NCBI GenBank assembly: GCA_030606485.1 | Contig: JAUWGH010000005.1 | Span: forward strand, 120,001-152,000 | Source of the DNA: Promethearchaeota archaeon | Lineage (GTDB): Archaea > Asgardarchaeota > Lokiarchaeia > Sigyniarchaeales > SOKP01 | Direction: 5' to 3' | DNA: 32,000 nucleotides | Shown here: piece by piece, positions 24,727 through 27,825 of the stretch | Numbering within the stretch: position 1 is the stretch's first letter | Layout of the letters: every line of letters begins with the position of its first letter | Translations under genes and position numbers: made by a program | Notes under the pieces: generated by a model | Seen by the model: only the letters and a program-made list of their open reading frames with translations | The model's database searches: none | Told to the model about the DNA's origin: nothing

Positions 24727-25209
24727 TTATTTTTGAAAATACTTGTGAATTTTTCTAGCGAAATCTTCTTGTTTTTTAGTCTCAAGTGAGCATGGTCGTA
24801 ATTTTCTTAACCACTTTATAGGATCCATGCCTTTTGGAATTTGATCATTTTTAGATGCCCACACGATAATCATTTGACCAGTTCTACCACAGCCAGCCAC
24901 ACAGTGCGTAACCATTGCTTCTCCATTTTCACCGTGTTTATCTGTGATCTCAATATATTTCAATATTTGTGATTCAGTTGGTAATCCAAAATCCGGGATA
25001 TTGATTTGATAATAATGAAAATTACCCGGGATATCGTTGCGATTATTAAATTCGCTGCAATTAATAATTACCTTTATACCTTCTCTTTTATAGATTTGAA
25101 AAACTTCTCTATCAGGCCACCAAGAAACCGCCATTTTCCCCTCAATTATCCAATTAAAAGGGTCGGCCCTGTGTTTATTTTCTTCCACTGACCAATACCA
25201 TGGTCGCAA
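24727..25209 (-). CDS. Dual-specificity protein phosphatase (DUSP23 / archaeal PTP-like)
   Basis: P-loop 'HCVAGCGRTG' (CX5R), general-acid loop 'IPDFGLP', N-terminal 'FNWIIEGKMA...P', and C-terminal 'RKLRPCSLET..QE'. TTG start. Confidence 0.92.
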   Translation of the reverse strand: MRPWYWSVEENKHRADPFNWIIEGKMAVSWWPDREVFQIYKREGIKVIINCSEFNNRNDIPGNFHYYQINIPDFGLPTESQILKYIEITDKHGENGEAMVTHCVAGCGRTGQMIIVWASKNDQIPKGMDPIKWLRKLRPCSLETKKQEDFARKIHKYFQK

Positions 25210-25339
25210 TTAAACATCCAATCCTTTTTAAGATTTTATATTTTAAAAGATAAAAAATTTTAATTAATAAAAATATTAAGTTACATAAGAAATTAAATTT
25301 TAATTAAAAAATTAAATTGCGTGGCACGAGCTTACATTA

Positions 25340-25789
25340 ATGCAGAACAATAAAAATTGGACGTTTAAAATTGATTGGCTTAAGATAGTTCAAATGCTTT
25401 CATTAAATTCTATCGAACAAATTCCGGAATATAAAAAACAAAAAGCATTTTCGAAATTAGAAAAAGAATTTGGCTCAGAAAACTTGGCTGAAATGGATCC
25501 TGAGTATTTAGAAGAATTAATTGGCGTTGAACTTCGAAAATTAATGCAGAAAGAATTATTTGATATTAAAAAAAAGGAAAAAGAACTTAGAAAGAAAAGT
25601 AGAATAATTCCTCTAAAACACGGAGGTATAATTAAAATTGACGCCTCTGATTTTAAAGATCTGAAAAATATGGAAGGAGATATTCAGGATATGTTAAAAG
25701 GATTTCTTGATAAATACTTCAATCAAGAAGATGATGAATCAGATCCAGGAGAGGATTCCGGAGAAGATTCTACTGGTTATTATATCTAA
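25340..25789 (+). CDS. Hypothetical helical protein with an acidic C-terminal tail ending TGYYI
   Basis: ATG start, 149 aa; charged helical core and tail 'QEDDESDPGEDSGEDSTGYYI*'. Confidence 0.75.
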   Translation: MQNNKNWTFKIDWLKIVQMLSLNSIEQIPEYKKQKAFSKLEKEFGSENLAEMDPEYLEELIGVELRKLMQKELFDIKKKEKELRKKSRIIPLKHGGIIKIDASDFKDLKNMEGDIQDMLKGFLDKYFNQEDDESDPGEDSGEDSTGYYI

Positions 25790-25812: not shown

Positions 25813-27825
25813 GTGATAAAAATTTTATATCATTTAAAAAAAAACAGAAAAAAAATCTATTTTCTAATATCCCTTTTTATCTTAATATTTACTTCTTCTT
25901 ACTTTACCAATATTTTAATCGAAAAACCTAATAATTCTCTTTCTAATGAATACCTCCAAAATAATATTAAATCAAGAATTGCTTCTGATGATCTCATACC
26001 TTCAGGAGAAAGAGTAACTGTTATGAATGACCCAAGAACTACGACAGTAATAAGTTGGAACACAAAGGAATACCCCTCAGAGCCAATAATATCTTATGGA
26101 GAAACAGAAAGTTTAGGTATTTTTAAAGAAGCATCCATTTACACAATACAAACAGGATATTTATGTTCTGCAGAACTCACTGATTTAAAGCCAAATACCT
26201 CATACTACTATCAAGTTGAATCTAATTCTTCCTATAAAGGTGAGATTATGAATTTTAAAACAGCTCCGGAGAGAAATGATCCGACTGTTAGATTTTTAGT
26301 ATGGGGTGATAGTCGAACAGACAGAAATACTAGAACTATACTTGCACAAAAAGCTTCCCAATTAAAAAATTTTTCATTCACCATTCATACAGGCGATATC
26401 GTAGAAGATGGAACAATACAGGAGCAATGGGATAATTATTTTAATGATACAAAAAAAATGAATGCATTCCATCAAAGCTATTTTATTGCCGGTAATCATG
26501 AATGGTTTGATCCTACAAGTCAAACGCTTATGTATGATAATATTCCTATGCCTTCAAATATGAGGGATTCTACATATTATTCATTTAACTATGGACCTAT
26601 TTCTTTTGTTGGATTAGACACTAACAAGCAGCTACCCATTCCATATATAAAGATGAATTTACAATGGCTTGAAACCGAATTAAAGAAAATGGAAGCTGAT
26701 AATTATTCCCTATGGAAAATTGCCTATTTTCATGAACCAATTTTTAATTCAATGCCAGGGCTAGATCGGCTTGACCGAGAGGATTTAAAAACAACTTGGT
26801 ATCCTCTATTTGAGCAATATCACCTTGATATAATGTTCGTGGGGCATAATCATTATTACGAAAGGACCTATCCAATTAATCATACTGGTGAATTTAATAA
26901 CTCCCAAGACCCAAATTATATTAATCCACAATATCCAATCCAAATTATTTCAGCTGGAGCTGGAGCACCTCTATATGATACAGCTGGGTGTAATGCATCA
27001 TATTCTGCCTATTTTAATAGTACTTATCATTTCAGTATCGTCGATATTGGTGTTAATTTAGGAGATAATACTACGAAATTAACATTAGAAACTTGGGCAA
27101 TGAAAAATTTTACATCTGTAAATTATAGTGATTTATTTTTAATTGATAAAATTACAATCACTAAAGATTTACCAGAAAAATATCTAAATATAACATATAC
27201 ACCATCAAAAATAGATGAATTTGTTCTAAAACCCGATTGGATTTATTATTTGGCTTATATTGGAGTTATTGCTGCGGTAATAATTTTTGCTGATTTGCCT
27301 ATTTTCTATAGATATGGTAAAAAGTGGAAAAAGCGAATTACTGAAAAAATTATCAACATTAAGGATGAAAAATTCAAACTATTCATTTCACTCACTCTTT
27401 ACATTTTATTTTCCATAGGCATATATTATATTCTTGTCGGAATTAATTTAACAAATCAAGTTTTTATTAATCTAATTTTAAGTTTTTCCGCAAGTTTTTT
27501 GCTCTTATCAATTGTTAATGGAATATTGTGGCAAAAAAACGGGTTCATTTTAACCTTTGGATTATTCATTAATTCTCTTGTGTTTATTGCAATTCTCTAC
27601 TTATTTCTTTTTGAACCTATACTATTTGATTACAACCCATTATTTATTCTTCTCTTCTGTATTATTGGTGTTGGGATTTTAATTGGATCAGCATATTTAT
27701 CTAGAAGTACTAAAGTATCAAAAGTATCTCATAGAGATTTCTTCCTACTTAGTGGAAATCTCTTATTATTGGGAAATCTAATTACAATACTTTCCTTTAT
27801 TAAAATAGTCACCTTAATTATTTAG
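25813..27825 (+). CDS. Purple-acid-phosphatase-like metallophosphoesterase with FN3 domain, N-terminal anchor and about six C-terminal TM helices
   Basis: FN3-like 'TTVISWNT...LTDLKPNTSYYYQV...F.TAP'; metal motifs 'WGDSR', 'HTGDIV', 'AGNHE', 'YFHEP', 'VGHNHYYER'; hydrophobic C-terminal third. GTG start. Confidence 0.88.
   Translation: MIKILYHLKKNRKKIYFLISLFILIFTSSYFTNILIEKPNNSLSNEYLQNNIKSRIASDDLIPSGERVTVMNDPRTTTVISWNTKEYPSEPIISYGETESLGIFKEASIYTIQTGYLCSAELTDLKPNTSYYYQVESNSSYKGEIMNFKTAPERNDPTVRFLVWGDSRTDRNTRTILAQKASQLKNFSFTIHTGDIVEDGTIQEQWDNYFNDTKKMNAFHQSYFIAGNHEWFDPTSQTLMYDNIPMPSNMRDSTYYSFNYGPISFVGLDTNKQLPIPYIKMNLQWLETELKKMEADNYSLWKIAYFHEPIFNSMPGLDRLDREDLKTTWYPLFEQYHLDIMFVGHNHYYERTYPINHTGEFNNSQDPNYINPQYPIQIISAGAGAPLYDTAGCNASYSAYFNSTYHFSIVDIGVNLGDNTTKLTLETWAMKNFTSVNYSDLFLIDKITITKDLPEKYLNITYTPSKIDEFVLKPDWIYYLAYIGVIAAVIIFADLPIFYRYGKKWKKRITEKIINIKDEKFKLFISLTLYILFSIGIYYILVGINLTNQVFINLILSFSASFLLLSIVNGILWQKNGFILTFGLFINSLVFIAILYLFLFEPILFDYNPLFILLFCIIGVGILIGSAYLSRSTKVSKVSHRDFFLLSGNLLLLGNLITILSFIKIVTLII

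What the first reader, a model, noticed from the sequence alone, without database searches (positions are those of the whole stretch)
25340..25789. Orphan protein ending in an acidic flexible tail and TGYYI: candidate ATP-independent 20S proteasome cap (HbYX motif)
Seen: a helical, coiled-coil-like core, then DDESDPGEDSGEDS and terminal G-Y-Y-I-stop. There are no Walker motifs. Established: a C-terminal hydrophobic-Tyr-X motif docks into 20S alpha-ring pockets (PAN, Rpt2/3/5, Blm10/PA200, archaeal PbaB), and actinobacterial Bpa/PafE ends in GQYL on a flexible tail. Inference: this may be an undescribed Asgard proteasome activator or adaptor. Penultimate Tyr can also occur by chance, so conservation is decisive.
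Basis: inference. Interest (0 to 1): 0.65.

Follow-up and report, generated by a model that had tools for sequence, protein, structure and literature searches.

The report
Asgard protein with proteasome-docking-type tail
A small, previously undescribed protein found in only one family of Loki-type Asgard archaea always ends in the same eight residues (E-D-x-T-G-Y-Y-I) on a floppy acidic tether; the last three match the tag that known regulators use to plug into the 20S proteasome, so it is a credible but unproven new proteasome partner.

Summary
Window 25340-25789 (+) encodes a 149-aa protein with a helical core, an acidic stretch and a terminal TGYYI-stop. It has no Walker motif and no Pfam, NCBIfam or PDB-sequence relative.

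Among about 70 full-length homologues, position -1 is I or L in all, -2 is Tyr in all but one, -3 is Tyr or Phe in all, and E-D sits at -8/-7. The 10-19-residue acidic linker in front varies in sequence and length. Every motif codon shows synonymous turnover.

The gene is single-copy and present in 61 of 68 sampled genomes of one GTDB family of Lokiarchaeia. It was not found in sister families. The N-domain (residues 6-86, pLDDT 93-96) matches no solved fold.

The same genome's PAN, two Cdc48 paralogues and one PAC2/Pba protein end in LYS, FYK, LYG and LYI. Both 20S alpha subunits keep the pocket lysine. PDZ, PUB and PUL receptors are essentially missing.

Against this reading: gene context gives no proteasome link, one lineage has lost the tail, and binding is untested. 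No complex prediction was possible.

Verdict: a new protein family carrying an HbYX-type tail. Docking to the 20S is the best single reading (about 0.4). This scan had not met the family before, but it has flagged unrelated Asgard orphans with HbYX-like tails.

The parts
25340..25789 (+). Whole gene: 149 codons plus a TAA stop. The product is 17.5 kDa, pI 4.9, with no Cys, no signal peptide and no TM segment.
   Evidence: The start codon aligns with the first residue of nearly all homologues.
25210..25339 (.). 130-bp AT-rich intergenic region between the divergent DSP-type phosphatase gene and this gene. It is the presumed promoter region; the gene appears to be transcribed on its own.
   Evidence: In 24 loci the upstream gap is 69-556 bp whatever the upstream gene is. 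Promoter function is inferred, not shown.
25355..25597 (+). N-terminal all-alpha domain, residues 6-86 (six helices). Invariant residues are W7, W13, L49 and E64; nearly invariant are D12, I16, L20, L22, I25, I28, E30, K32, A36, L57, L60 and L65. No known fold matches.
   Evidence: pLDDT 93-96 with the 62-sequence alignment. Conservation. Foldseek found no match with E <= 0.001 and the best VIA Z is 5.1.
25598..25720 (+). Conserved basic hairpin-plus-helix segment, residues 87-127, with consensus ...IP-F/L-K-x-G-G-I-I-K-I-D-P-R-D-x-K-D-L... followed by helix 115-127. Residues 71-106 carry net charge +6. It probably orders only on oligomerisation or partner binding.
   Evidence: Strands 89-91 and 97-99, helices 103-106 and 115-127, at pLDDT 52-57. 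Conservation. Charge. The folding-on-binding idea is inference.
25721..25762 (+). Acidic disordered linker, residues 128-141. Across the family it is 10-19 residues long, 55% D/E, rich in indels, with low per-column information.
   Evidence: pLDDT below 50.
25763..25786 (+). Invariant C-terminal octapeptide E-D-S-T-G-Y-Y-I. The family consensus is [E/D]-D-x-[T/N/S]-[G/H/S]-[Y/F]-Y-[I/L]-COOH, and the last three residues form an HbYX-type motif.
   Evidence: 3.4-4.3 bits per position, equal to the buried core positions. 57 of 77 retrieved proteins end in TGYYI and the variants are conservative. Synonymous codon turnover occurs at every position in 24 loci. The DNA pattern hits once per genome and only in this family.
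25787..25789 (+). TAA stop directly after the motif. No homologue extends past the motif, so the free alpha-carboxylate is kept.
   Evidence: stop is TAA in 23 of 24 loci and TAG in one.

Best explanation
The gene encodes a cytosolic 17.5-kDa protein invented within one family of Lokiarchaeia (Promethearchaeia). It has four parts: a compact all-alpha N-domain of unknown fold, a conserved basic hairpin-plus-helix segment, a 10-19-residue acidic disordered linker, and an invariant C-terminal octapeptide ending in Y-Y-I-COOH.

Proposed mechanism (inferred, not shown): the tail acts as an HbYX-type plug. The two aromatic residues and the free carboxylate insert into an inter-subunit pocket of the 20S proteasome alpha ring, with the carboxylate paired to the conserved pocket lysine (Lys66). 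This tethers the body of the protein to the face of the core particle without ATP. Once docked it could open the gate, deliver or hold a client bound by the N-domain or basic segment, or compete with PAN and Cdc48 for the same pockets.

Shown here: the gene is real and under purifying selection; the motif, its terminal position and the tail's flexibility are conserved; the receptor and similar native tails are present in the same genome. Inferred: binding to the 20S, the oligomeric state, and any effect on gating.
For: (1) The motif sits at the extreme C-terminus in every tailed homologue. Position -2 is Tyr in all but one of about 70, -3 is Tyr or Phe in all, and -1 is Ile or Leu in all, down to 26-38% overall identity.
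(2) Motif positions carry 3.4-4.3 bits, as much as the buried core, while the linker is variable and has indels. All motif codons show synonymous turnover, so selection acts on the peptide.
(3) The tail is predicted disordered, with pLDDT below 50. Its length (linker 10-19 residues plus 8) is like the disordered 19-23 C-terminal residues of PbaB (PMC3605417) and the variable 15-20-residue stretch before GQYL in Bpa (PMC4254994).
(4) Y-Y-X is a structurally validated HbYX: PA200 uses YYA (PMC7077846).
(5) The same genome's established 20S dockers end in LYS (PAN), FYK and LYG (Cdc48) and LYI (PAC2/Pba). It has 2 alpha and 3 beta subunits, and both alphas keep the pocket lysine.
(6) Alternative readers of such tails are scarce. 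The only PDZ is a sub-threshold one inside a membrane M50 protease, and no PUB or PUL was found.
(7) [YF]-Y-[IL]-stop occurs in 0.04-0.1% of ORFs in this genome, so chance is excluded.
Against: There is no direct evidence of binding, and no tool here predicts complexes. Gene neighbours are housekeeping genes (NAPRTase, a Rho_N-domain protein, an alpha/beta-hydrolase, a PHP protein, CdhBC) with no proteasome link. The proteasome is universal in archaea, yet this protein occurs in one family only and was not found in the sister family (0/7 by profile, 0/14 by tail pattern). Co-occurrence, the argument used for Bpa, therefore cannot be applied. Conservation spans eight residues (E-D-x-T-G-Y-Y-I), more than HbYX docking is known to need, and -1 is restricted to I/L although the 'X' position is normally free. 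Both hint at a more specific receptor. One member has His at -2 (P0020), and one lineage seen in three independent assemblies has no tail at all (P0021/P0078). Other Asgard proteins with Tyr-containing tails in this scan were judged not proteasome-related on follow-up.
Confidence: 0.4

Rival explanations
1. The octapeptide is a short linear motif for a different, still unidentified receptor. Candidates are a TPR-type carboxylate clamp or a lineage-specific partner that arose together with this protein. The match to HbYX would then be coincidental.
For: Conservation covers eight residues, including an invariant E-D pair and a near-invariant T-G, and the last residue is restricted to I/L. The gene is confined to one family, as expected if the partner is lineage-specific too. 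A motif of class Phi-x-Phi-COOH also fits the tail.
Against: The classical readers of such ends are missing. The 100%-complete genome has only one sub-threshold PDZ, inside a membrane site-2 protease, and nothing with the PDZ or PDZ_6 models. No PUB or PUL was found, although those two searches lack positive controls. The motif occurs on no other protein in 400 Asgard genomes, so there is no sign of a shared docking system. No candidate partner is conserved next to the gene, and the small neighbour c5 is missing from the window's own genome.
Confidence: 0.28
2. The tail works within the protein or between its own subunits. The acidic linker would mask the basic hairpin segment, which may bind nucleic acid or another polyanion, and the Y-Y-I tip would anchor in the protein's own N-domain. 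This resembles the acidic, hydrophobic-tipped tails of bacterial SSB and phage T7 gp2.5 (own knowledge) and would give autoinhibition or head-to-tail oligomers.
For: The charges are complementary: +6 for residues 71-106 (family median +6) against -9 for linker plus motif. The hairpin segment is conserved yet modelled at low confidence, as if it needs a partner. A tail-less lineage keeps the body.
Against: AlphaFold2 did not dock the tail on the body in either run; the tail stays below pLDDT 50. However, the alignment is shallow (hhalign Neff about 3). No nucleic-acid-binding fold or family was detected. Strict retention of the free C-terminus and an aromatic-Tyr-X end is not required by a purely electrostatic mask.
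Confidence: 0.18
3. The body is a diverged copy of the N-terminal half of archaeal/eukaryotic-type ribosomal protein uS19, and the protein is ribosome-associated.
For: The family profile hits eukaryotic uS19/RPS15 residues 5-83 co-linearly at E = 0.01, 18.8 bits.
Against: Profile-profile comparison gives probability 0.2% against the organism's own uS19 and 0.09% (E = 0.57) against a 29-sequence Asgard uS19 profile. BLASTP finds nothing. uS19 is not among the top 50 rows (Z 3.6 or more) of either VIA search.
Confidence: 0.03
4. The ORF or its tail is a chance feature of an AT-rich genome.
For: Tyr and Ile codons are common in this genome (Y 4.1%, I 11%).
Against: About 75 homologues exist. The gene is single-copy and syntenic in 61 of 68 genomes of the family, with synonymous turnover and a confidently folded domain.
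Confidence: 0.01

Closest known systems
Bpa / PafE (Rv3780), the ATP-independent bacterial proteasome activator of actinobacteria
   Same: It is a small helical non-ATPase protein with a conserved core, then a variable stretch of 15-20 residues, then a fully conserved terminal motif (GQYL) whose penultimate Tyr docks into the alpha ring. It was discovered by the same logic, a conserved C-terminal HbYX (PMC4254994).
   Different: There is no detectable sequence relationship: the profile search of PDB sequences finds no Bpa chain. Bpa co-occurs strictly with proteasome genes, a test that cannot be applied in archaea. Bpa's ring oligomer is demonstrated, whereas the oligomeric state here is unknown. 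The motif here is longer (8 residues) and preceded by a strongly acidic linker.
PbaB (archaeal PAC2 family, PF09754)
   Same: It is an archaeal ATP-independent 20S activator that binds through a C-terminal HbYX on flexible 'tentacle' segments; the last 19-23 residues are disordered in the crystal (PMC3605417). One PAC2 paralogue of this genome ends in L-Y-I, close to Y-Y-I.
   Different: The fold is different: PbaB is a three-layer alpha/beta/alpha protein, while this protein is all-alpha plus a hairpin. There is no PF09754 match. The genome already has three PAC2 genes, so this is an addition, not a replacement.
PA200 / Blm10
   Same: It uses a terminal Tyr-Tyr-X (YYA) as its HbYX, with both tyrosines inserted in an alpha-ring pocket (PMC7077846).
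   Different: PA200 is a monomeric HEAT-repeat dome of about 200 kDa, eukaryotic and unrelated in sequence and size.
C-terminal tails of PAN and archaeal Cdc48/VAT
   Same: They carry the same class of terminal tripeptide and target the same receptor. In this genome they end in LYS, FYK and LYG.
   Different: Those are AAA+ unfoldases. This protein has no ATPase domain and would act without ATP, possibly as their competitor.

Membership tests
HbYX-dependent 20S proteasome interactors (a functional class, polyphyletic) | Hydrophobic-Tyr-X tripeptide at the extreme C-terminus with a free carboxylate | tested here: met
   The protein ends in Y-Y-I followed by a stop. No homologue extends beyond the motif.
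HbYX-dependent 20S proteasome interactors (a functional class, polyphyletic) | Penultimate Tyr conserved among homologues while the preceding tail varies | tested here: met
   Tyr at -2 in all but one of about 70 tailed members (His in P0020). The linker is variable in length and sequence. Synonymous codon turnover is seen. One lineage lacks the whole tail.
HbYX-dependent 20S proteasome interactors (a functional class, polyphyletic) | Motif carried on a flexible segment able to reach the alpha-ring pockets | tested here: met
   Residues 129-149 have pLDDT below 50 in two predictions. This is an in-silico result only.
HbYX-dependent 20S proteasome interactors (a functional class, polyphyletic) | Receptor present: a 20S alpha ring with the pocket lysine (Lys66 in T. 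acidophilum numbering) | tested here: met
   There are two alpha and three beta genes. The Lys is kept in the E/D-K-[IL]-x-K-I-D segment of both alphas and aligns to the A. fulgidus alpha. The identity of Lys66 rests on established knowledge.
HbYX-dependent 20S proteasome interactors (a functional class, polyphyletic) | Motif-dependent physical binding to the 20S or alpha ring | not testable with these tools
HbYX-dependent 20S proteasome interactors (a functional class, polyphyletic) | Gate opening, i.e. stimulation of peptide or unfolded-protein degradation | not testable with these tools
   This needs a biochemical assay.
Bpa / PafE | Sequence homology to Bpa | tested here: not met
   phmmer and the family profile against all PDB chain sequences return no Bpa/PafE chain at E <= 10.
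Bpa / PafE | Four-helix-bundle protomer forming a ring | tested here: inconclusive
   Fold searches list no Bpa chain, but weak or missing matches do not exclude a fold. The oligomeric state was not testable.
PAC2 / PbaA-PbaB (PF09754) | Match to the PAC2 domain model | tested here: not met
   There is no PF09754 hit for this protein, and it is not among the listed top 25 families in the 62-member scan. The model finds three other genes in this genome.
Class II PDZ ligands (Phi-x-Phi-COOH) | A cytosolic PDZ-domain receptor in the same organism | tested here: not met
   The only hit is one sub-threshold PDZ_2 (24.9-26.4 bits against a cut-off of 27) inside a 702-aa membrane M50 protease. The PDZ and PDZ_6 models find nothing in a 100%-complete genome.
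Ribosomal protein uS19, N-terminal region | Significant profile-level homology | tested here: not met
   hmmsearch gives E = 0.01 against eukaryotic uS19, but hhalign gives probability 0.2% and 0.09% against Asgard uS19.

The most novel reading that the evidence does not exclude
The protein assembles, through its novel N-domain and hairpin segment, into an oligomeric ATP-independent cap that opens or regulates the 20S gate through its Y-Y-I tails. That would be a further independent invention of an HbYX activator, after PA200/Blm10, PbaB and Bpa. It would be the first one specific to Asgard archaea, it would have a new fold, and its extended eight-residue docking motif could itself serve as a minimal gate-opening peptide.
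Probability: 0.22. Interest if true: 0.7.

Novelty: new variant of a known kind. Interest (0 to 1): 0.55.

Why it matters
ATP-independent regulators of the archaeal 20S proteasome are few. PbaB is the only well-studied one, and none specific to Asgard archaea turned up in the literature searches run here. If this protein docks to the 20S, proteasome regulation is still being reinvented within narrow archaeal lineages from unrelated folds that share only the terminal plug. It would also provide a short, strictly conserved natural peptide for studying gate opening.

The claim can be tested directly with a synthetic octapeptide and a recombinant 20S. If the tail instead binds another receptor, it defines a new C-terminal docking motif in Asgard archaea. 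Two limits apply: the family is confined to one uncultured lineage and is missing from the sister family, so it says little about the origin of eukaryotes.

Tried and rejected
(1) Known families. Pfam, NCBIfam and PDB-sequence searches with the single protein found nothing, apart from a sub-threshold TatA match at E = 0.018. Scanning all 62 members against Pfam gave only scattered weak hits. The commonest was S_100 in 13 members (best E = 0.022), attributed to an ELKELMKKEL-type helix.

(2) Fold. Foldseek and VIA-align on two models gave no match with E <= 0.001 and a best Z of 5.1, within noise for helical models. The ESM Atlas gave no usable hit.

(3) uS19 lead. A borderline profile hit was rejected by profile-profile comparison.

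(4) Gene context. A conserved synteny block exists (NAPRTase, Rho_N-domain protein, small protein c5, alpha/beta-hydrolase, X, PHP protein or CdhC/CdhB), but it contains nothing proteasome-related and is rearranged in the window. The small neighbour c5 was rejected as a partner because the window's genome has no convincing copy.

(5) Fusions. No longer proteins contain this domain, though this is weak evidence.

(6) Cryptic orthologues or a portable tag. The back-translated pattern for EDxTGYYI-stop hits nothing outside the family, apart from one stray contig.

(7) The Trp-containing docking module of RNA polymerase A' noted earlier in this genome shows no sequence resemblance to the N-domain by eye.

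(8) Other receptors. PDZ, PUB and PUL were essentially not found.

(9) Apparent absences in the home family. G104 is a contig break inside the upstream gene. G267 has no copy at its hydrolase hit. The genome of the tail-less variant P0021 is not among the 400 representatives searched.

Full report
OBSERVATION. Window 25340-25789 (+) is an ATG-to-TAA ORF of 149 codons. Its product ends ...NQEDDESDPGEDSGEDSTGYYI. It has no P-loop, no Pfam or NCBIfam family and no relative among PDB sequences. In a crude ORF set of the whole 3.75-Mb genome, 3.4-3.6% of ORFs have a penultimate Tyr, 1.2-1.4% end in hydrophobic-Tyr-X and 0.04-0.1% end in [YF]-Y-[IL]. This is the only ORF ending in G-[YF]-[YF]-x. The description is accurate. 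Only 'coiled-coil-like' and 'orphan' need qualifying, as explained below.

THE FAMILY AND THE DECISIVE TEST. A word-indexed search of 5.8 billion proteins found 8 close full-length relatives plus one fragment. An exhaustive phmmer over 1.84 billion cluster representatives found 17. A profile search raised the total to 64, and translated genome loci added more. None carries a name other than 'hypothetical protein', and all labelled sources are Asgard MAGs.

Of the 77 proteins retrieved, 57 end in TGYYI. The other full-length tailed members end in NHYYI, THYYI, AGYYI, DGYYI, NSYYI, SGFYI, ASYYL or TSYHL; genome loci add SFYYI and TGFYI. Position -1 is therefore always I or L, -3 always Y or F, and -2 is Y in every case except one His (P0020, whose sister P0076 has Tyr). 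E-D occupies -8/-7 almost invariably.

In a subset made non-redundant at 70% identity (30 sequences), the motif positions carry 3.4-4.3 bits. That equals the invariant core residues W7, W13, L49, L57 and E64. The preceding linker drops to about 1-2 bits at several positions and contains indels. The motif persists at 26-38% overall identity. In 24 loci every motif codon shows synonymous alternatives (TAT/TAC, ATT/ATC/ATA, GGN, ACN, GAA/GAG, GAT/GAC) with the residue unchanged. Selection therefore acts on the peptide, not on a DNA element.

ANATOMY. With a 62-sequence alignment, AlphaFold2 gives a very confident all-alpha domain for residues 6-86 (pLDDT 93-96; six helices). It gives a low-confidence but conserved segment with a beta-hairpin (89-91, 97-99), a short helix (103-106) and a longer helix (115-127) at pLDDT 52-57. 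The tail from residue 129 is disordered, with pLDDT below 50 (the 20-sequence run agrees). Net charges are about -2 (residues 1-70), +6 (71-106; family median +6), -2 (107-127), -7 (linker) and -2 (motif). The linker is 10-19 residues long (median 15) and 55% D/E. Foldseek and an exhaustive VIA-align search of 48,161 PDB representatives give only noise, with a best Z of 5.1. The confident domain is thus a compact helical bundle without a recognisable relative, not a long coiled coil.

DISTRIBUTION AND CONTEXT. A profile search of 301 Asgard genomes found the gene, single-copy, in 61 of 68 genomes of one GTDB family. It found none in 7 genomes of the sister family, including a closed 4.4-Mb genome. 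Elsewhere there were only two hits, on short contigs of bins with 7-9% contamination.

A back-translated DNA pattern for E-D-x-T-G-Y-Y-I-stop hits exactly once in 67 of 134 genomes of the family; the others carry the variant tails. It hits nothing with the reversed control pattern, and nothing in 265 genomes of other families apart from the same stray contig. There are therefore no cryptic orthologues that kept the tail, and the motif is not a portable tag.

Of the apparent absences in the home family, one is a contig break inside the upstream gene. In another genome no copy lies at the hydrolase hit.

The gene sits in a conserved block: NAPRTase, a Rho_N-domain protein, a small repeat protein c5, an alpha/beta-hydrolase, X, then a PHP-domain membrane protein or CdhC/CdhB. 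In all 22 loci where an upstream neighbour could be read, the gap ahead of X is 69-556 bp (most often about 200 bp), whatever the upstream gene is. In the window the block has been opened by insertions, a DSP-type phosphatase upstream and a purple-acid-phosphatase-like membrane protein downstream. Nothing in the neighbourhood relates to proteolysis.

RECEPTOR AND NATIVE LIGANDS IN THE SAME GENOME. The genome encodes two alpha-type and three beta-type proteasome subunits. Both alphas keep the lysine of the E/D-K-[IL]-x-K-I-D segment, which aligns with the corresponding segment of the A. fulgidus alpha. Its equivalence to Lys66, the residue that pairs with the carboxylate of HbYX tails, is established knowledge. 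PAN ends in L-Y-S. The three Cdc48 paralogues end in F-Y-K, L-Y-G and F-F-V. The three PAC2/Pba paralogues end in L-Y-I, L-F-M and Y-F-R. A Y-Y-I end thus fits the set of tails this 20S already accepts. Tyr at the 'Hb' position is validated structurally by the YYA of PA200 (PMC7077846).

RIVALS TESTED. A Phi-x-Phi-COOH end could be a class II PDZ ligand. However, the complete genome has only one sub-threshold PDZ, inside a 702-aa membrane M50 protease. PUB and PUL domains, which read the acidic ...DDLYG tail of eukaryotic p97 (own knowledge), were not found, although these searches lack positive controls.

A borderline, co-linear profile hit to the N-terminal region of eukaryotic uS19 (E = 0.01) was not confirmed. 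hhalign gives 0.2% against the organism's own uS19 and 0.09% against a 29-sequence Asgard uS19 profile.

No longer fused forms exist in the protein collection, which is weak evidence. The Trp-containing module on RNA polymerase A' noted by an earlier agent is unrelated in sequence.

One reading cannot be excluded: the acidic tail may mask the basic hairpin segment of the same protein. AlphaFold2 did not dock the tail on the body, but the alignment is shallow.

EXCEPTIONS. P0020 has His at -2. P0021/P0078 come from three contigs in three sources, the longest 158 kb. They keep the N-domain and hairpin but end just after the last helix, with no acidic linker and no motif. The body can therefore persist without the tail. 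The genome of this variant was not among the 400 representatives searched.

MECHANISM AND COMPARISON. The architecture is a folded core, a variable disordered stretch and an invariant terminal motif with a penultimate Tyr. That is the architecture described for Bpa/PafE, which has a 15-20-residue variable stretch before an invariant GQYL and was itself found by searching for conserved HbYX ends (PMC4254994). PbaB also fits it, with HbYX-dependent binding and 19-23 disordered terminal residues (PMC3605417).

The best single reading is that the Y-Y-I-COOH tip plugs into an alpha-ring pocket of the 20S and tethers the body there without ATP. Whether it opens the gate, delivers clients or competes with PAN and Cdc48 cannot be decided here.

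The protein is not a member of the Bpa, PAC2, PA28 or PA200 families by sequence. It would be a new, unrelated carrier of the same docking device. Three things temper the reading: the eight-residue extent of the conserved motif, the restriction of the last residue to I/L, and the narrow phyletic range. Each would also fit a dedicated lineage-specific receptor.

I put 20S docking at about 0.4, another receptor at about 0.28, an intramolecular or self-association role at about 0.18, and the remainder on other readings.

PRIOR NOTES. This scan had not seen the family before. It has flagged unrelated Asgard proteins with HbYX-like tails, some judged credible and some (zinc-ribbon proteins ending in LIYE) judged not proteasome-related. 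Those notes are unchecked and were used only as context and as a caution.

Noticed in passing
L083:1447-1995 (-) = G000 contig C2:207555-208103: Ribosomal protein uS19 of this genome is 182 aa, with an acidic N-terminal extension of about 45 residues (rich in E/D/K). The four other genomes of the same family that were sampled share it, at varying length. In Asgard genomes of other families the match starts at about residue 45-50 of this protein.
   Followed up: partly
L011:3750-3971 (+), L032:5602-5838 (+), L041:8790-9035 (-): A small protein (70-82 aa, no Pfam) made of two internal repeats (FGEIKF[GA]E...DF..SF..YF) lies upstream of the gene in about half of the 24 loci examined. It has no convincing copy in the window's own genome.
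   Followed up: partly
G000 contigs C6:190833-193091, C10:208444-210723, C4:59815-62052 and C2:22701-23492, C6:57246-58052, C10:764543-765322: There are three Cdc48 paralogues with different tails (FFV, FYK, LYG) and three PAC2/Pba paralogues with different tails (LFM, LYI, YFR). Only some keep a canonical HbYX, which suggests a division of labour among 20S partners.
   Followed up: no
L002:1387-2097 (+) = G000 C1:422599-423309: A third beta-type proteasome subunit (236 aa) has about 38 residues before the Pfam proteasome domain (a presumed propeptide) and lacks the alpha N-terminal signature. The genome therefore has 2 alpha plus 3 beta genes.
   Followed up: partly
window 24727-25209 (-) and 25813-27825 (+): In this genus the gene is flanked by a divergent DSP/PTP-type phosphatase. 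It is followed 23 nt downstream by a 670-aa purple-acid-phosphatase-like protein with a long multi-pass membrane C-terminal half. Both are insertions relative to the family's usual synteny.
   Followed up: partly
L047 (G218:C267:1-2786) and L053 (G295:C363:1526-3298): The only hits outside the home family lie on contigs of about 2.8 and 3.3 kb in bins with 7-9% contamination. L047 keeps the home family's synteny (c5, hydrolase, X). Mis-binning is more likely than transfer.
   Followed up: partly
L041:7680-8588 (-): In one genus a 302-aa HEAT-repeat protein replaces the alpha/beta-hydrolase directly upstream of the gene, on the same strand.
   Followed up: no
window 25300-25339: A short G+C-rich island (GCGTGGCACGAGC) lies about 20 nt before the start codon in an otherwise very AT-rich intergenic region. 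Its conservation was not examined.
   Followed up: no
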